This document shows positions 29,426 through 39,577 of a stretch of 59,802 nt of DNA, one piece after another. Position 1 is the first letter of the stretch, and the number at the start of each line of letters is the position of its first letter. This DNA is from Enterobacteria phage JenP2. A program made the translations under genes and the position numbers. Location of the stretch: the sequence record NC_028997.1. One strand, given 5' to 3'. Below the pieces are notes generated by a model. It had not been told where the DNA came from. It worked only from the letters and a program-made list of their open reading frames with translations, and searched no databases.

Positions 29426-30055
29426 TTACTTTTTACACGCTTCAAGAAATTCCCGACGCCATGTATCACCAGTCACGTCCGGTAATACACCATCGCCCAA
29501 TGCAGTACGTCCGCGGAATGCTTTAGTGATGGTTGAGCTGCCACATACCTGTTTAACACCGCGCGACTCCATGCACATATGTTTTGCATCGATGTAGACG
29601 CACACAGCTTTCGGCTCTAAATGGTCACGGATGGCGTCCGCAATCTGGTTAGTTAGACGTTCTTGGACTTGCAAACGTCGAGCGAAAGCATCAACTACCC
29701 GAGATAACTTGCTGAGACCGACAATTTTTCCATTTGGAACATATCCAACCACCGCATGACCAATAATAGGAGCCATGTGATGCTCACAATGACTATATAC
29801 AGGGATATCGCGGACGATGACCATTTCATCGCAGTTTTCCCCACCATCTTCAAATGTCTTGAACAGGGATGCGATATCGACAGAATAACCCCCGAACCAT
29901 GTAGCATAAGCCTTAGCTACACGATCTGGAGTTTCTACTAAACCTTCACGAAGATCAGTAGTATCGTACCCTTCAATAACAGATAGAAGATTTCTTACAG
30001 CTACTTGAATTTGATGCTGATGAGATTTCAACTCTAAATAATTTACATTTGACAT
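29426..30055 (-). CDS. folE: GTP cyclohydrolase I
   Basis: 209 aa; conserved VYSHCEHHMAPI active-site motif. Confidence 0.9.
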   Translation of the reverse strand: MSNVNYLELKSHQHQIQVAVRNLLSVIEGYDTTDLREGLVETPDRVAKAYATWFGGYSVDIASLFKTFEDGGENCDEMVIVRDIPVYSHCEHHMAPIIGHAVVGYVPNGKIVGLSKLSRVVDAFARRLQVQERLTNQIADAIRDHLEPKAVCVYIDAKHMCMESRGVKQVCGSSTITKAFRGRTALGDGVLPDVTGDTWRREFLEACKK

Positions 30056-30081
30056 GGTTTACAGTTTCCTTGTGTGGTCAA

Positions 30082-30615
30082 TTATTTGCAATAGTTAACA
30101 TGGCATTTGGACGTTTCTTCAATGGTGCATTCTATCAATTCAACACCATATTGGTCAAGCAGTTGAGGACCAATTACGTCAACCATATATGCAGCTAAGT
30201 TTTCCGCAGTTGGGTTGAATGGTAAAGCTACCAAAGAATTAAAGAAAGGATCGTAATCTTCATCCGTCACTAAATTGTTCTCACGTGCAAACTTAGTTGA
30301 TGCAACAACAATGAGCGAATTAATCATGCTGTCTTGTTCCCAATGCAGGAACTTATGATCCCAGTTATCTTCCAACCACTGGCAAAGCGTAGTTTTAACC
30401 ACACTAAAGTCGATAACGCGACCTACGTCGTCCAAGGATCCTTCTAGAGCAAATCCACTTACAGACTTAACGTAGCCTTCCGACAATGTTTTCTTTGGTG
30501 CAACTTTAAAATGGAACTTATAGTTGTGACCATGAAGATGGCGACACTTACTTTCATGCCCTACGACACGATGCCCAGCGCAAATCTCATGTGAACGAAT
30601 AACAGTGTAACCCAT
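30082..30615 (-). CDS. queD: 6-carboxy-5,6,7,8-tetrahydropterin synthase
   Basis: 177 aa; zinc-binding CxxxHGH motif (CRHLHGHNYKFHF) and N-terminal CAGHR. Confidence 0.85.
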   Translation of the reverse strand: MGYTVIRSHEICAGHRVVGHESKCRHLHGHNYKFHFKVAPKKTLSEGYVKSVSGFALEGSLDDVGRVIDFSVVKTTLCQWLEDNWDHKFLHWEQDSMINSLIVVASTKFARENNLVTDEDYDPFFNSLVALPFNPTAENLAAYMVDVIGPQLLDQYGVELIECTIEETSKCHVNYCK

Positions 30616-30617
30616 TT

Positions 30618-32033
30618 TTATTCCTCGTTTTCGTATTTAATAACTTCTTGTGCGTTATTAATATTAAACGCAGTCCGACGCATCATGCAAGGGCCACAAG
30701 TACCGCAATGTAGATCCCCGTTACGGTAACAGCTCCAGGTGTGCTCCAACGGGGCCCCTAAACGTAGGCCTGTAGCGACAATTTCGTGCTTCATTAAGTT
30801 ACCTACTGGCATGAGCACTTCAACGCGCTTACCGTCGCCTACAGCGAATGGTAGCACCTGATTAAAGCGGTTAATAAACTCAGGCTCGTTGTCCGGATAG
30901 GCTCCAGCTTCTTCTAAGTTGTTACCAAGAACAATATAGTCGAAACCATTAGCTTCTGCGTATGCAGTAGCAACAGAAAGCATCACAAGGTTACGGGCTG
31001 GAACCCATTCATGGGCAAACTCAGCGCCTTCTTCACCGCCCGCAATTGCAGCATCTTGATCAAATAACGGGCTATCTTTCTTATCGTAAATTGGGATTGG
31101 GAATTCAACTAATGGAACTTCCATCACTTCCGCAATTTTACGAATAGCCTTCAACTCGTTAGTTTCAGCACGACAACCATACTGGAAGTTAATCAAAGTA
31201 ACATCCAAACCGTTGGACTTACACATCTGAGCTGCCACTGTGCTGTCCATACCACCACTGGCGACAACTAACGCCCGTTGAGTCTGCTTATTTGGAATAA
31301 GATCGACCTCGCTGCATACACCAGTCGATGTGACCACATTACAGGTGTAGGGTTTCAACATTTGCTTAATAGCGCGGGTAGGTAACATGTCTTCCTGACT
31401 GGCGAAATACATACCCGTATGAGTCTTACCAATCCAAATTGGACGGTAATTACATGCTGCAAACACATACCCAGGAATTGAATCATGCGTTGCAAGGATT
31501 GCGTAACTCCCTTTCAACTTGCGAACAACTTCATGGAATACGTTATAAAGGTAATTTAAATCAGACAGACACATTTCATCTGTTGAAAGTGTGCATTCTG
31601 CTAACTGTTCAACAATTGCAGCACTATCAATCTTAGTCTGCAGTGCATAGGTACGAAGGTCTTTATCGTTCGCAATAGTACCGTTATGAACAATAGTCCA
31701 ACTATCGAGATGATACGGTTGTTGATCCCATTCGTTCTTGTCGACGACCCACTCTGTAGTCGGTTCAGCGCGAGCGTTACCAATCATTGTGAAGCTACCA
31801 ATAGCTCCAGCGTGAGATGCAATGCGCCCGACTTTAACAAGACGTTCCAGCGATGTTTCCTTACCGACGCTGACGATACGTTGCGGGTGTATACTGTGGT
31901 CACCATGCGTGAAGCGTACACCAAGACCATCACGACCACGGTTAATACTAGCTTTAATAAGATCGTCAATGTCGTTACGGATGATAAGACTTTCAGGTTG
32001 ACCGTTAGTAATGACACCAAAGATAGAGCACAT
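30618..32033 (-). CDS. queC: glutamine amidotransferase-QueC fusion (7-cyano-7-deazaguanine synthase-like)
   Basis: Start set to the Met of MCSIFGV (class II amidotransferase N-terminal Cys, as in AsnB) with AAGGAAGG SD; C-terminal QueC PP-loop VVASGGMDS and Cys cluster CYRNGDLHCGTCGPC. Confidence 0.85.
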   Translation of the reverse strand: MCSIFGVITNGQPESLIIRNDIDDLIKASINRGRDGLGVRFTHGDHSIHPQRIVSVGKETSLERLVKVGRIASHAGAIGSFTMIGNARAEPTTEWVVDKNEWDQQPYHLDSWTIVHNGTIANDKDLRTYALQTKIDSAAIVEQLAECTLSTDEMCLSDLNYLYNVFHEVVRKLKGSYAILATHDSIPGYVFAACNYRPIWIGKTHTGMYFASQEDMLPTRAIKQMLKPYTCNVVTSTGVCSEVDLIPNKQTQRALVVASGGMDSTVAAQMCKSNGLDVTLINFQYGCRAETNELKAIRKIAEVMEVPLVEFPIPIYDKKDSPLFDQDAAIAGGEEGAEFAHEWVPARNLVMLSVATAYAEANGFDYIVLGNNLEEAGAYPDNEPEFINRFNQVLPFAVGDGKRVEVLMPVGNLMKHEIVATGLRLGAPLEHTWSCYRNGDLHCGTCGPCMMRRTAFNINNAQEVIKYENEE

Positions 32034-32034
32034 A

Positions 32035-32793
32035 TTATTTACCTTCCTTAACCATTTCAATTTCACGCTCAACGGATACAATAATATCGTTGAGGTCTTC
32101 CAGTAAGTCTTTATGTCCACGTTCACCAGCACACAGCACTTTCTTCAGTGCATGTTGCATGGGCCCACTGGTTACATTAAATGCTTTAATTACATCGTAC
32201 ACGTCAACCCATACATCAATTTCAATTGGGCTACCGTTAATATCATGCGATTCAAAAGTCTTGATTTTGCGCATATATTTATTTGGACGTGGAGCTTTAA
32301 TATCCTGGATACAATCCGTGTCGATAAACGCTTCATTAATGGATACTTCCGGATCACCTTCTTTGTTACGATCAACTTTAAAGACGCTCGTAAGTACATC
32401 TTCCATGATACCAGCTAATTTCTGAGTAGATGTTGTGTACTTCTTCACATTTTCTGCTTCTTCTGCTGCTTTCTGACTTCTACTGACAGAAGTATTAATA
32501 CGCCATTTATAAAGTGCATTACTTGGAGGCGTCACATGCGTGTTGTAAACTGTCTTTAAACCCATGAGATCTTGTCCATCCATACCTTCAATAAAGACAG
32601 TAAGTGTAGGACTGCTATCATTCAAGACATCTACTACATATCCTTCTCGAATTACAGATGCAAGAGCTGCATGGGACGCAGCCTGTGAAGCTGTGGTCAC
32701 ATAATGTTTTACAAATCCGTCTTCATCGAACAGACACTGGTTTAACACATTTTCTGGAACAATTTCACCGAGTAATTGAACGTGCTTATTCAT
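32035..32793 (-). CDS. hypothetical protein embedded in the 7-deazaguanine cluster
   Basis: 252 aa; stop abuts the gat-queC start (translational coupling); no motif recognised. Confidence 0.55.
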   Translation of the reverse strand: MNKHVQLLGEIVPENVLNQCLFDEDGFVKHYVTTASQAASHAALASVIREGYVVDVLNDSSPTLTVFIEGMDGQDLMGLKTVYNTHVTPPSNALYKWRINTSVSRSQKAAEEAENVKKYTTSTQKLAGIMEDVLTSVFKVDRNKEGDPEVSINEAFIDTDCIQDIKAPRPNKYMRKIKTFESHDINGSPIEIDVWVDVYDVIKAFNVTSGPMQHALKKVLCAGERGHKDLLEDLNDIIVSVEREIEMVKEGK

Positions 32794-32905
32794 AATAATT
32801 TACCTTATTAGTTGAACATACCATGTCTTCTAGCGCGTTGACCGTCACCAGCATAATGGTCATTAGCCACAGCAATCATCCACGCGTTTTTGAATATGTA
32901 TAACT

Positions 32906-33670
32906 TCACTCTACACCTAAATATTTGTGGATCTGCAATTGCACGATGTAATTGTGCTTGATTGCATATTTAACGACAGCTTGGGCGTTTGCTTTATTAG
33001 CATCGTCGTCCTGTTCATCCATAGGTTGAAGATAAATGTTACCTTTAAAGTGTACAGGCGGACGTGCGATAAATGGTGTCGCACGGTGATCCAGTGCCTG
33101 CAACGGTAATCCATCTTCCTCGTTGACGTTTCCGCTTTTCATTACATATTTGAAAGCATCCGCTCGAGCGGAAACGCTAGGGTGAACCTTTGCTGCCTTA
33201 GGACTACATACTACCACACAGTTATAGTTGAGTTCACGCGGGATAGGCATAGTTCCGTTAGTTTCAACCTGTACACGATATCCTTTCATATCGATAAGGT
33301 AGTTGATAAAATTAACAACTTCAGGTTGACGGAAAGGTTCGCCACCAGTAATAACAACTAATTTAGTCTTGGCTTCACCAGTGACACGAACAATCTCCTG
33401 CCAAATATCACCGTGACTCATCTTCTTACGATTAGACGTATAGTTTGTATCGCAACCTGGGCATTGCAAGTTGCAACCAGCTAATCGGACAAATACGGCA
33501 GGTTGACCACAAAATGGGCCTTCGCCTTGAATGGTATGAAAAATGGAATGTACGTCAAGAATACCACGTTCACGAACTAACTTCTCAGGATCCTGAGTAT
33601 TAATAATTTTCATATGATTTCCAAATTTGGCTTGAGCCCAGTGGTGGGCGATAATGGCTTGTGCAAACAT
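32906..33670 (-). CDS. queE: 7-carboxy-7-deazaguanine synthase (radical SAM)
   Basis: Radical-SAM Cys motif CNLQCPGC; start set to the Met with a GAGG SD (the track ORF extends to 33694). Confidence 0.8.
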   Translation of the reverse strand: MFAQAIIAHHWAQAKFGNHMKIINTQDPEKLVRERGILDVHSIFHTIQGEGPFCGQPAVFVRLAGCNLQCPGCDTNYTSNRKKMSHGDIWQEIVRVTGEAKTKLVVITGGEPFRQPEVVNFINYLIDMKGYRVQVETNGTMPIPRELNYNCVVVCSPKAAKVHPSVSARADAFKYVMKSGNVNEEDGLPLQALDHRATPFIARPPVHFKGNIYLQPMDEQDDDANKANAQAVVKYAIKHNYIVQLQIHKYLGVE

Positions 33671-33738
33671 TTGAACCTCGGGGTAAGATAACAAAGGGGC
33701 AGTAAATGCCCCTTCTGAGTTTCCGAAGTGTCTACAGA

Positions 33739-38647: not shown

Positions 38648-39577
38648 TTACTGTGCAGCGTCATCGCCTTCAGTGGAACGTTTCCACGGTGGAGTCTTGG
38701 TCTGAGCTGCTTTAGCGATATCGTCCTGGACTTCAGGTTCTGCATGGTTAGCAGTACCAGTGTTCTGAGCTTGAGTTTGCGGTTGCTCTGCTCCAGGCTG
38801 TACCTGCTGAGTTGCCCAGTTAGGCTGTTGTGTGGTTTGTTGCTGCGGCTGCTGCGCACCAGTAGCCCACGGTTGAGATTGCGCCGCACTGTTAAAATCA
38901 ACTGTTCCAGACTGCTGCGGCTGCTGCCCAAATGCACCCGGGAAACCCTGCTGCTGTTGTTGCTGCGGTTGCTGGAACCCCTGAGTCTGAGGTTGTTGCT
39001 GCTGTTGCTGCGGCTGCTGCCCAAATGCACCCGGGAAACCCTGCTGCTGTTGTTGCTGCGGTTGCTGAGTACCACCGAACGCACCGCCACCAAATGCTGG
39101 AGACTGTGCTGCCGCTGCCGGAGTTGATTTAGGCAGGTTAGCCACATCCGCTTTAGTTGCGTATACAACGCCTTCCATATTATCAATTGCTTGATAAATC
39201 TGAGGTTCGTTGTTTGGCTCATAGCCAGGTTGCTGACGAACTTTTACTTTCAGGTTGAACGGAATACCGTGCAGTTGTTCGGTATCGTTCCAAACTGGAA
39301 CTTTAACAGCACGAGATAACTCTGCCAGTTCTTCCATTGCAATCTGTACAGCGACAGGGTTCGCGTTTTTGACGTTGTAACCGCCAAACATTACACGACC
39401 AGCAAAATCACCCTGCATAATCTTAAACTGAAGATTCAGACGCGCACCGCCTGGAGTTTTAGTCGGTTTGATCTCAGAGTTTACAATCTGAACAACATAC
39501 CAACCAGCGGGCATCAAACTATTGTGTTGACGCTCTGCGTGTTGTCCAGCGTTAAATTGCATTCCTAAACCGGCCAT
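38648..39577 (-). CDS. putative ssDNA-binding protein with Q/P/G-rich linker
   Basis: 309 aa; N-terminal ~150-aa globular domain then a Q/G/P low-complexity region resembling an SSB linker; no terminal DIPF. Confidence 0.5.
   Translation of the reverse strand: MAGLGMQFNAGQHAERQHNSLMPAGWYVVQIVNSEIKPTKTPGGARLNLQFKIMQGDFAGRVMFGGYNVKNANPVAVQIAMEELAELSRAVKVPVWNDTEQLHGIPFNLKVKVRQQPGYEPNNEPQIYQAIDNMEGVVYATKADVANLPKSTPAAAAQSPAFGGGAFGGTQQPQQQQQQGFPGAFGQQPQQQQQQPQTQGFQQPQQQQQQGFPGAFGQQPQQSGTVDFNSAAQSQPWATGAQQPQQQTTQQPNWATQQVQPGAEQPQTQAQNTGTANHAEPEVQDDIAKAAQTKTPPWKRSTEGDDAAQ
38923..39067. repeat. intragenic near-perfect direct duplication (~60 bp units, 84-bp period)
   Basis: The unit GCTGCGGCTGCTGCCCAAATGCACCCGGGAAACCCTGCTGCTGTTGTTGCTGCGGTTGCTG occurs twice, encoding the repeated peptide QQPQQQQQQGFPGAFGQQPQQ. 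Confidence 0.6.

What the first reader, a model, noticed from the sequence alone, without database searches (positions are those of the whole stretch)
32035..32793. Uncharacterised 252-aa ORF embedded and translationally coupled inside the deazaguanine cluster
Seen in sequence: the ORF sits between queE and gat-queC on the same strand; its stop codon directly abuts the gat-queC start, with the gat-queC Shine-Dalgarno inside its 3' end. I recognise no known Que/Dpd motif in it. Inference: co-transcription and coupling with the pathway enzymes make it a candidate extra pathway component, for example a base-tailoring enzyme, a DpdA partner or a self-immunity factor.
Basis: inference. Interest (0 to 1): 0.75.

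Follow-up and report, generated by a model that had tools for sequence, protein, structure and literature searches.

The report
Two-domain accessory gene beside QueC
This is a real, conserved phage gene of unknown function that always sits next to the enzyme making the modified-base precursor preQ0; it joins a domain found only in such gene clusters to a widespread phage domain distantly related to the T7 nucleotide kinase, and it is not needed for the base chemistry itself.

Summary
The window is phage JenP2 (Nonagvirus). The 252-aa ORF is real. It lies on the minus strand (32035-32793) between queE and gat-queC. Its TAA stop is followed by one base and then the gat-queC ATG, and an AAGGAAGG Shine-Dalgarno lies in its last codons. 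It is the ortholog of phage 9g gp07, annotated as hypothetical everywhere.

It has two domains.
- **N-domain (aa 1-105):** it has about 11 phage relatives among 1.84 billion representative proteins. In every locus read it lies inside a 7-deazaguanine cluster and touches queC or gat-queC, in two different gene orders. It sometimes occurs without the C-domain. Its fold matches nothing solved.
- **C-domain (aa 170-252):** it is as constrained as the flanking enzymes (dN/dS 0.058). It belongs to a large unannotated phage family. That family links weakly to DUF3310 / T7 gp1.7 nucleotide kinase through a shared PHROG and Foldseek hits, but it fails the Pfam model.

Published work shows that 9g dpdA plus gat-queC alone make dG+. 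Vid5, iggy and Seuratvirus lack the N-domain and still modify their DNA.

The gene is therefore not a base-tailoring enzyme or an obligatory DpdA partner. The best reading is a lineage-specific accessory factor acting at the QueC/preQ0 step. The mechanism is inferred, not shown.

The parts
32035..32793 (-). The ORF 'X' (252 aa plus TAA stop). It is the ortholog of phage 9g gp07 and a member of PHROG 18443.
   Evidence: 100% identical to JenP2 AVU33_gp36
32479..32793 (-). N-domain (aa 1-105). This module is specific to deazaguanine clusters. Invariant residues are H30, S40, Y83 and W97; G26 and N92 are nearly invariant. The predicted fold is alpha/beta and matches no known structure.
   Evidence: dN/dS 0.14
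32287..32478 (-). Variable acidic linker (aa 106-169). It is absent or different in distant homologs and has low model confidence.
   Evidence: dN/dS 0.37; pI 4.65
32038..32286 (-). C-domain (aa 170-252): a beta-hairpin followed by three helices. The motif is NKYxRxxK ... VDVYDVI ... QHALKKxLxxGxRGHKD..DLxDI..S..R. It belongs to a large unannotated phage family and is probably a distant relative of DUF3310 / T7 gp1.7.
   Evidence: dN/dS 0.058
32042..32049 (-). AAGGAAGG Shine-Dalgarno for gat-queC, inside the last codons of X.
   Evidence: a GAAGG-type purine run lies before TAA-N-ATG in 8 of 9 N+C loci; the P0314 contig has AAAGGGG
32031..32037 (-). Coupling junction TAA-T-ATG (X stop, one base, gat-queC start).
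32803..32806 (-). AAGG Shine-Dalgarno-like element 9 nt upstream of the X start codon.
   Evidence: ATAAGGTA conserved in five Nonagviruses
30618..32033 (-). gat-queC (471 aa; glutamine amidotransferase fused to QueC), the downstream coupled gene.
32906..33670 (-). queE (254 aa from the ATG shared with 9g), the upstream gene.
28403..30615 (-). Rest of the cluster: queD 30082-30615, folE 29426-30055, dpdA 28403-29356.

Best explanation
X is a lineage-specific accessory protein of the Queuovirinae 7-deazaguanine module. It acts at the QueC/preQ0 step and not in base chemistry or DNA insertion.

- **N-domain.** This roughly 105-aa domain is the part specific to the pathway. I infer that it binds either preQ0 or a close intermediate, or the QueC/Gat-QueC enzyme itself. 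It would retain or hand on the precursor made by QueC or imported by YhhQ.
- **C-domain.** In Nonagviruses the N-domain is fused, through a variable linker, to a generic phage early-protein domain. That domain is probably a distant relative of DUF3310, the domain of the T7 gp1.7 dGMP/dTMP kinase. I infer that it binds a nucleotide or is kinase-like, possibly helping guanine-nucleotide supply for FolE.
- **Expression.** The gene is translated in step with gat-queC through a conserved stop-1nt-start junction.

Shown here: gene reality, domain architecture, exclusive cluster association, adjacency to queC, junction conservation, and dispensability for dG+ chemistry. Inferred: any ligand, partner or catalytic activity.
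For: 1. A profile of the N-domain searched against 1.84 billion representative proteins finds 13 proteins. Eleven look phage-derived and two are long repeat proteins.
2. Contexts were read for 8 of those 11 phage representatives (a ninth, P0310, is covered by close relatives in loci L030 and L031; a look-up for P0311 found nothing), and for further loci: five Nonagviruses including this window, eleven metagenomic contigs, EC151, Kpn2-P2 and five IMG/VR contigs. In every one the gene lies in a que cluster.
3. Wherever a queC-type gene is on the contig (all but two short ones), the N-domain gene is adjacent to it, in two different orders. Type A is queE|X|gat-queC. Type B is queE..queC|X|yhhQ|queD. 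Adjacency kept through a rearrangement argues for a functional link and against frozen synteny.
4. N-domain-only genes (112-118 aa) occupy the same slots in both cluster types, so this domain carries the cluster-linked function.
5. The invariant residues are polar or aromatic (H30, S40, Y83, W97, plus G26 and N92). This suits a ligand pocket.
6. The TAA-N-ATG junction with gat-queC is conserved in 9 loci, down to 25-40% protein identity. A purine-rich Shine-Dalgarno of GAAGG type precedes it in eight of them.
7. The gene is under purifying selection, and the C-domain is as constrained as the enzymes.
8. The link from the C-domain to DUF3310 rests on phrog_25460. It is hit by 32 of 105 family members (best E 6.8e-5; 0.032 for X itself) and by T7 gp1.7-type proteins (E 1e-3 to 1.7e-5). 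The hits fall on overlapping profile positions (91-142 against 73-139), which lines up VDVYDVI with IEAIEVI and QHALKK with GNILKY.
9. Foldseek against BFVD lists two 'nucleotide kinase' proteins and one DUF3310 protein after the in-family hits (probabilities 0.63-0.92).
10. T7 gp1.7 carries PF11753 at residues 122-184.
Against: - All N-domain loci belong to one related group of phages with the same replication-module backbone. Inheritance of a syntenic block could explain part of the association.
- The gene is not needed for dG+ formation in E. coli.
- Clusters without it work well: Vid5 has dG+ at 7.55% of G, CAjan has 32% preQ0, and iggy has 16.5% dPreQ0 (abstract). Absence of both domains from Vid5 and iggy, and of the N-domain from Seuratvirus phiG7, is shown.
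- The C-domain occurs in about 750 phage genomes, mostly without que genes, so its function is generic.
- The DUF3310 link is weak. The Pfam model gives no hit even at E<=10, hhalign probability is below 1%, and Foldseek E-values are 0.016-0.33.
- No ligand, partner or activity has been tested. The N-domain model is only moderately confident (pTM 0.73, with residues 69-75 below pLDDT 50).
Confidence: 0.45

Rival explanations
1. X is a generic early, nucleotide-metabolism or host-takeover protein. Its activity resides in the widespread gp1.7/DUF3310-like C-domain. It sits in the que cluster only because that cluster lies in the early replication region of this phage lineage, and it has no direct role in DNA modification.
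For: - The C-domain is the most constrained part of the protein (dN/dS 0.058).
- It is found in 754 phage records and more than 2400 protein clusters, often as a stand-alone 68-100-aa early protein in phages without que genes, such as Jerseyvirus, Drexlerviridae and Casjensviridae.
- Seuratvirus keeps a C-domain protein with a different N-terminus in its cluster.
- dG+ is made without the gene.
Against: - The N-domain has never been seen outside que clusters.
- It keeps its adjacency to queC or gat-queC in two different gene orders, and it persists where the C-domain is lost.
- The coupling junction to gat-queC is conserved across deep divergence.
Confidence: 0.28
2. X is a counter-host factor tied to deazaguanine biology. 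The N-domain would bind and block a host protein that drains or senses the pathway. Candidates are QueF or Tgt, which consume preQ0/preQ1, or a defence protein that recognises modified DNA.
For: - It is a small phage-specific domain with no catalytic signature, encoded in an early operon.
- The N-domain profile weakly resembles a single ankyrin repeat, a protein-binding motif.
- DUF3310 proteins are toxic or sensed by defences in other systems (PMC10700055; PMC11897194).
Against: - Phage 9g, which carries the gene, is still blocked by the deazaguanine-targeting glycosylase Dag1.
- Invariant buried-type residues (H, S, Y, W, N) fit a ligand pocket better than a fast-evolving host interface.
- Adjacency specifically to queC is not explained by this reading.
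Confidence: 0.17
3. X is a catalytic base-tailoring enzyme, or an obligatory subunit of DpdA, that determines the final modified base.
For: It is co-transcribed and coupled with pathway enzymes, and the residues of both domains are highly conserved.
Against: - dpdA plus gat-queC alone give dG+ at 9-18% of G, and dpdA alone inserts preQ0.
- Vid5 lacks the gene and has dG+.
- The gene occurs with both QueC (dPreQ0-type) and Gat-QueC (dG+-type) clusters.
- It is never adjacent to dpdA.
- No enzyme family or fold is detected.
Confidence: 0.05

Closest known systems
T7 gp1.7 nucleotide kinase / Pfam DUF3310 (PF11753; 'SaV-like')
   Same: The C-domain has the same size and the same order of elements. 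A Tyr-containing strand comes first, then an acidic amphipathic helix (VDVYDVI in X, IEAIEVI in gp1.7). A helix ending in L-K-K/Y-x-L-x-A-G-x-K/R follows, then a loop and a D-L helix. Both families hit phrog_25460 on overlapping profile positions. Foldseek retrieves DUF3310 / 'nucleotide kinase' viral models. Both occur as small early phage proteins, alone or behind variable N-terminal regions. P0066 has a Cys-rich N-terminus, as gp1.7 does.
   Different: The PF11753 model gives no hit, even at E<=10. hhalign is not significant. The signature residues differ: QH..KK and GxRGHKD in X, against GN..KY and AGKK in gp1.7. No kinase activity has been tested, and no structure exists for either family.
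Phage 9g gp07 / PHROG 18443 (hypothetical protein of Nonagviruses)
   Same: It is the direct ortholog: 252-253 aa, the same position, about 87% amino-acid identity, and a full-length PHROG match at E 5e-169.
   Different: Nothing differs. The family simply has no assigned function in any record or paper searched.
Known accessory genes of phage deazaguanine clusters (YhhQ/Vut_1 preQ0 transporter; DpdL, DpdM, DpdN tailoring enzymes)
   Same: These are extra genes embedded between the core que genes and present only in some lineages. In type B clusters X lies directly upstream of yhhQ.
   Different: X has no sequence or fold similarity to any of them. It is soluble in JenP2, although two homologs carry a hydrophobic segment (P0306, P0311). 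It is not tied to a particular final base.
Ankyrin repeat
   Same: N-domain profile positions 13-70 align to single repeats of an ankyrin protein (GW..H ... S..LL ... G..VD...DG), at about 8-10 bits per repeat.

Membership tests
DUF3310 / T7 gp1.7 nucleotide kinase (PF11753) | Match to the Pfam PF11753 model at or above the gathering score (24 bits) | tested here: not met
   X and seven homologs give no PF11753 hit even at E<=10. T7 gp1.7 itself scores 81.5 bits.
DUF3310 / T7 gp1.7 nucleotide kinase (PF11753) | Detectable remote homology, either profile-profile or through an intermediate family | tested here: inconclusive
   hhalign probability is below 1%, although it aligns the expected motif. 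The bridge through phrog_25460 has E 0.032 for X, a best family value of 6.8e-5 (32 of 105 members), and 1.7e-5 for gp1.7-type proteins, on overlapping profile positions.
DUF3310 / T7 gp1.7 nucleotide kinase (PF11753) | Shared fold | tested here: inconclusive
   Foldseek against BFVD returns 'nucleotide kinase' models at E 0.016 and 0.07 (probabilities 0.63 and 0.92) and a DUF3310 protein at E 0.33 (probability 0.80). No solved structure is available for comparison.
DUF3310 / T7 gp1.7 nucleotide kinase (PF11753) | Phosphorylation of dGMP/dTMP | not testable with these tools
   This needs a biochemical assay.
Core Que/Dpd enzymes (FolE, QueD, QueE, QueC, Gat-QueC, QueF, ArcS, DpdA, DpdL/M/N, YhhQ) | Match to the corresponding Pfam or NCBIfam model | tested here: not met
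   No family matches in Pfam or NCBIfam. The flanking genes do match.
Deazaguanine-cluster accessory gene (operational definition) | Found only inside que/dpdA clusters, with a conserved position relative to a core gene across divergent clusters | tested here: met
   Every locus read has the N-domain inside a que cluster. It is adjacent to queC or gat-queC wherever such a gene is on the contig (all but two short contigs), in two gene orders. All loci come from related siphophages.
Deazaguanine-cluster accessory gene (operational definition) | Required for, or changes, the DNA modification | not testable with these tools
   Literature shows it is not required for dG+ in a heterologous system or in Vid5. 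A quantitative effect in its own phage has not been tested.
Ankyrin repeat | Match to ankyrin models, and a helix-turn-helix repeat fold | tested here: not met
Anti-phage defence proteins (PADLOC) | Match to any PADLOC model | tested here: not met

The most novel reading that the evidence does not exclude
The N-domain would be a previously unrecognised small carrier or chaperone protein that binds 7-deazaguanine (preQ0). It would capture preQ0 as it leaves QueC or enters through YhhQ, keep it away from the host QueF/Tgt route, and pass it to Gat-QueC or DpdA. In Nonagviruses it would be fused to a gp1.7-like guanine-nucleotide-binding or kinase domain. That would make it the first dedicated metabolite-channelling component described for a DNA hypermodification pathway.
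Probability: 0.2. Interest if true: 0.7.

Novelty: new variant of a known kind. Interest (0 to 1): 0.5.

Why it matters
Phage 7-deazaguanine DNA modification is treated as a five-gene pathway: FolE, QueD, QueE, QueC or Gat-QueC, and DpdA. This gene is a sixth conserved resident of the cluster in Nonagviruses and their relatives, and it has been drawn as an unlabelled 'hypothetical' box in every published cluster figure.

The analysis here gives concrete starting points for experiments:
- One domain is exclusive to these clusters and always touches queC.
- The gene is translationally coupled to gat-queC.
- It cannot be the source of the base chemistry.

These points narrow the plausible roles to precursor handling, enzyme assistance or host interference. 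They also say which deletion and binding experiments to run.

Separately, the C-domain family (more than 2400 clusters, no Pfam entry) is a large uncharacterised group of phage early proteins. A tentative link to the T7 gp1.7 kinase fold would give that whole family a working hypothesis.

Tried and rejected
- **Direct sequence annotation.** Pfam, NCBIfam, PADLOC and PDB sequences gave nothing.
- **Foldseek of the full model against PDB.** No hit had E<=0.001.
- **afdb50 library.** It was unavailable.
- **hhalign of the C-domain profile against T7 gp1.7, single sequence and alignment.** Not significant. The gp1.7 homologs retrieved were all at least 73% identical to T7, so the DUF3310 profile was shallow.
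- **Ankyrin lead from the representative search.** P0309 scored E 1e-13, but this is the sum over about ten repeats of 8-10 bits each. It is not supported by Pfam, PDB or structure, so I rejected membership.
- **Is the Seuratvirus partner (phiG7_12) N-terminus, or the neighbouring phiG7_11, an N-domain homolog?** No. phiG7_11 is the YhhQ-like membrane protein.
- **Is the unexplained C-terminal extension of phage iggy QueC a fused N-domain (a Rosetta-stone link)?** No.
- **DNA mimic or DNA-binding idea from charge.** The pI values are unremarkable.
- **Primary T7 gp1.7 papers.** They are not in the library. gp1.7 activity is cited second-hand from PMC11897194 and PMC10700055.
- **The search for related loci with the N-domain alignment or with several single queries.** These returned few or no loci.

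Full report
**Identity of the window and check of the observation**

The ORF product is 100% identical to hypothetical protein AVU33_gp36 of Enterobacteria phage JenP2. The contig length (59,802) equals the window. JenP2 is a Nonagvirus (Queuovirinae), the genus of phage 9g.

The ORF runs on the minus strand from ATG 32793 to TAA 32035-32037. Upstream on the same strand is queE (32906-33670). Downstream are gat-queC (30618-32033, product starting MCSIFG), queD, folE, dpdA, the sliding clamp and the polymerase.

The 3' junction reads AAGGAAGGTAAA-TAA-T-ATG. The stop is separated from the gat-queC start by one base. The 5' side is looser in JenP2, with a 112-nt spacer and an AAGG 9 nt before the ATG.

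**It is a real gene**

All 16 phage records that carry this gat-queC at megablast level also carry the ORF immediately upstream.

Mean pairwise dN/dS among JenP2, 9g, BRET, PD328 and SE1:

| Region | dN/dS |
|---|---|
| Whole ORF | 0.19 |
| Residues 1-105 (N-domain) | 0.14 |
| Residues 106-169 (linker) | 0.37 |
| Residues 170-252 (C-domain) | 0.058 |
| queE | 0.059 |
| gat-queC | 0.057 |

**No direct annotation**

Pfam, NCBIfam, PADLOC and PDB sequence searches give nothing above noise. PHROGs places the full length in phrog_18443 (unknown function). Residues from about 165 to 250 also fall in five other PHROGs, one of them labelled 'ATPase'. Every database record calls the gene hypothetical. 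The deazaguanine papers searched do not discuss it.

**Two domains with very different distributions**

Alignment with homologs shows three parts: a conserved N-terminal block, a variable acidic linker, and a highly conserved C-terminal block.

*C-domain*
- It has 23 invariant residues in a 16-sequence alignment. The motif is NKYxRxxK...VDVYDVI...QHALKKxLxxGxRGHKD..DLxDI..S..R.
- The C-block alone retrieves more than 2400 protein clusters and 754 phage genomes.
- It often forms a stand-alone 68-110-aa early protein in phages without deazaguanine genes. Examples are Jerseyvirus Ent1, Drexlerviridae Sd1 and Casjensviridae.
- None of these proteins carries a Pfam domain.
- AlphaFold2 models it confidently (pLDDT 83-93) as a beta-hairpin followed by three helices.

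*N-domain*
- A nine-sequence profile of residues 1-111 was searched against 1.84 billion representative proteins. It finds only 13 proteins.
- Eleven are phage-like. The other two are long proteins: P0309, an ankyrin-repeat protein, and a 5,908-residue protein (P0315) that I did not read.
- P0309's score is the sum of about ten weak single-repeat matches.

**Genomic context of the N-domain**

I read the context of every homolog for which DNA could be obtained. This covered five Nonagviruses (this window, 9g, BRET, PD328, SE1), eleven metagenomic contigs, phages EC151 and Kpn2-P2, and five IMG/VR contigs. I located QueE, QueC/Gat-QueC, YhhQ, QueD, FolE and DpdA in them by tblastn.

All loci are deazaguanine clusters. 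Wherever a queC-type gene is on the contig, the N-domain gene is adjacent to it. Two short contigs, L014 and L019, end before one.

Two architectures occur:
- **Type A:** queE | X | gat-queC ... queD | folE | dpdA.
- **Type B:** queE ... queC | X | yhhQ | queD | folE | dpdA. EC151 is the isolated example.

In both types there are versions consisting of the N-domain alone, 112-118 aa (Kpn2-P2, L030, L031, L017, L018). No C-domain lies within the fetched flanks of L017, L018 or L021 (Kpn2-P2), and the tblastn map shows none in L030 or L031. Two homologs carry a hydrophobic segment (P0306, P0311).

The TAA-N-ATG junction with gat-queC is kept in nine N+C type-A loci, although their proteins are only 25-40% identical. 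A purine-rich Shine-Dalgarno of GAAGG type precedes it in eight of the nine. Outside Nonagvirus, the queE stop overlaps the X start.

Seuratvirus phiG7 has queC | yhhQ-like | a C-domain protein with an unrelated N-terminus | queD.

Vid5 (gat-queC) and iggy (queC) have neither domain. Vid5 has an unrelated 63-aa ORF in the same slot with the same one-base junction.

**What the C-domain resembles**

By eye the motif recalls DUF3310. T7 gp1.7, the dGMP/dTMP kinase, carries PF11753 at residues 122-184 (activity as summarised in PMC11897194 and PMC10700055).

| Test | Result |
|---|---|
| PF11753 model against X and seven homologs | not hit, even at E<=10 |
| hhalign against gp1.7 | pairs QHLLKKALASGQRGH with GNILKYRLRAGKKSE; probability below 1% |
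| phrog_25460, hit by X | E 0.032 |
| phrog_25460, hit by C-domain family | 32 of 105 members, best E 6.8e-5 |
| phrog_25460, hit by gp1.7-type proteins | E 1e-3 to 1.7e-5 |
| Foldseek against BFVD, after in-family hits | two 'nucleotide kinase' models (E 0.016 and 0.07; probabilities 0.63 and 0.92) and one DUF3310 protein (E 0.33; probability 0.80) |

The two sets of phrog_25460 hits cover overlapping profile positions (91-142 for X, 73-139 for gp1.7 types). That overlap lines up VDVYDVI with IEAIEVI and QHALKK with GNILKY.

No solved structure exists for either family. I conclude that a distant DUF3310 relationship is probable, at roughly 0.6, but not demonstrated. Membership of the Pfam family fails.

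**What the N-domain resembles**

With the enlarged alignment, AlphaFold2 gives pTM 0.73. The model has N-terminal helices, a long helix at 34-49, a beta-hairpin at 54-67 and further short strands.

The invariant positions are H30, S40, Y83 and W97; G26 and N92 are nearly invariant. Charge is unremarkable.

**Constraints from the literature**
- Expression of 9g dpdA alone puts preQ0 into E. coli plasmid DNA.
- dpdA plus gat-queC gives dG+ at 9-18% of G, against about 25% in the phage (PMC6884629; PMC10516641).
- Vid5, which lacks the gene, has dG+ at 7.55% of G (PMC8306585).
- CAjan (Seuratvirus) reaches 32% preQ0. phiG7, of the same genus, has no N-domain.
- 9g is still sensitive to the deazaguanine-directed glycosylase Dag1 (bioRxiv 10.1101/2025.10.29.685425).

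The gene is therefore neither the source of the G+ chemistry nor an obligatory DpdA subunit. It is not a Dag1 inhibitor. It is also not universally needed for high modification levels.

**Interpretation**

The common denominator of the genes X touches (QueC, Gat-QueC, YhhQ) is preQ0. The N-domain is exclusive to these clusters. It stays next to queC through a change of gene order, works without the C-domain, and has a polar and aromatic invariant core.

I therefore favour an accessory role at the preQ0 step: binding the precursor or assisting QueC/Gat-QueC. In Nonagviruses this would be coupled to a generic gp1.7-like domain that may bind or phosphorylate guanine nucleotides. Confidence in the general statement is 0.45, and lower for any specific ligand.

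The main rival (0.28) is that the conserved C-domain performs a generic early function and the cluster location reflects shared ancestry, since all N-domain loci come from related siphophages. A host-factor inhibitor is possible (0.17). A tailoring enzyme or DpdA partner is nearly excluded (0.05).

**Novelty and interest**

The gene itself is catalogued as a hypothetical protein, so its existence is not new. As far as the searched literature shows, these points are new:
- the domain dissection;
- the exclusive association of the N-domain with queC in two architectures;
- the conserved coupling junction;
- the tentative gp1.7/DUF3310 link for a very large unannotated phage family.

It is a plausible sixth component of a known system, not a new kind of system, and it is dispensable for the chemistry. 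Interest is moderate (0.5).

Noticed in passing
window 32808-32879 (-): A 23-codon ATG ORF (MIAVANDHYAGDGQRARRHGMFN) fills most of the 112-nt queE-X spacer. The spacer length varies among Nonagviruses: 34 nt in BRET, 62-63 nt in 9g and SE1, and 368 nt with two annotated small ORFs in PD328. This looks like an insertion hot spot. Whether the JenP2 mini-ORF is expressed is unknown.
   Followed up: partly
window 33693-33715 (-): A terminator-like GC-rich hairpin (GAAGGGGCATTTACTGCCCCTTT followed by a T-rich tail) lies just upstream of the queE start, between the 274-aa Lys/Glu/Ala-rich protein gene and queE. It may mark the start of a separate que transcription unit.
   Followed up: no
L032 10115-10306 (-) (Pantoea phage Vid5 gp39): Vid5 has an unrelated 63-aa ORF in the same queE|?|gat-queC slot, with the same stop-1nt-ATG junction (GAGAAATAACATGTGC). 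A short coupled ORF upstream of gat-queC seems to be conserved even when its content is not.
   Followed up: partly
L008 6983-8389 (Aeromonas phage A18P4 gp37, 468 aa): The C-domain family also occurs at the N-terminus of a 468-aa protein. UniProt names it DNA ligase, and it sits next to a PAPS-reductase-like gene. This is one of several fusions of the domain to larger proteins seen in the BFVD hits.
   Followed up: no
L025 16406-17467 (-) (Pseudomonas phage iggy QueC): iggy QueC carries a C-terminal extension of about 140 aa with no known match, as noted in PMC10484667. It is not related to either domain of X.
   Followed up: yes
P0306 (L019 1607-2089) and P0311: Two N-domain homologs carry a hydrophobic, probably membrane-spanning segment, C-terminal in P0306 and N-terminal in P0311. 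In type B clusters the gene directly precedes the YhhQ-type preQ0 transporter. This hints at a link to the membrane or the transporter.
   Followed up: partly
window 38648-39577 (-): The DUF669-type single-strand-binding protein has a long Gln/Pro/Gly-rich internal repeat (…PQQQQQQGFPGAFGQQPQQ… appears twice). It produces long spurious ORFs in other frames and on the opposite strand.
   Followed up: no
phrog_17613 and GenBank records (e.g. Shigella phage Sd1 gp68, Pseudoalteromonas phage BS5): Stand-alone C-domain proteins are annotated 'ATPase' or 'terminase ATPase subunit' in several records. Nothing in the sequence supports this, and it looks like propagated misannotation.
   Followed up: no
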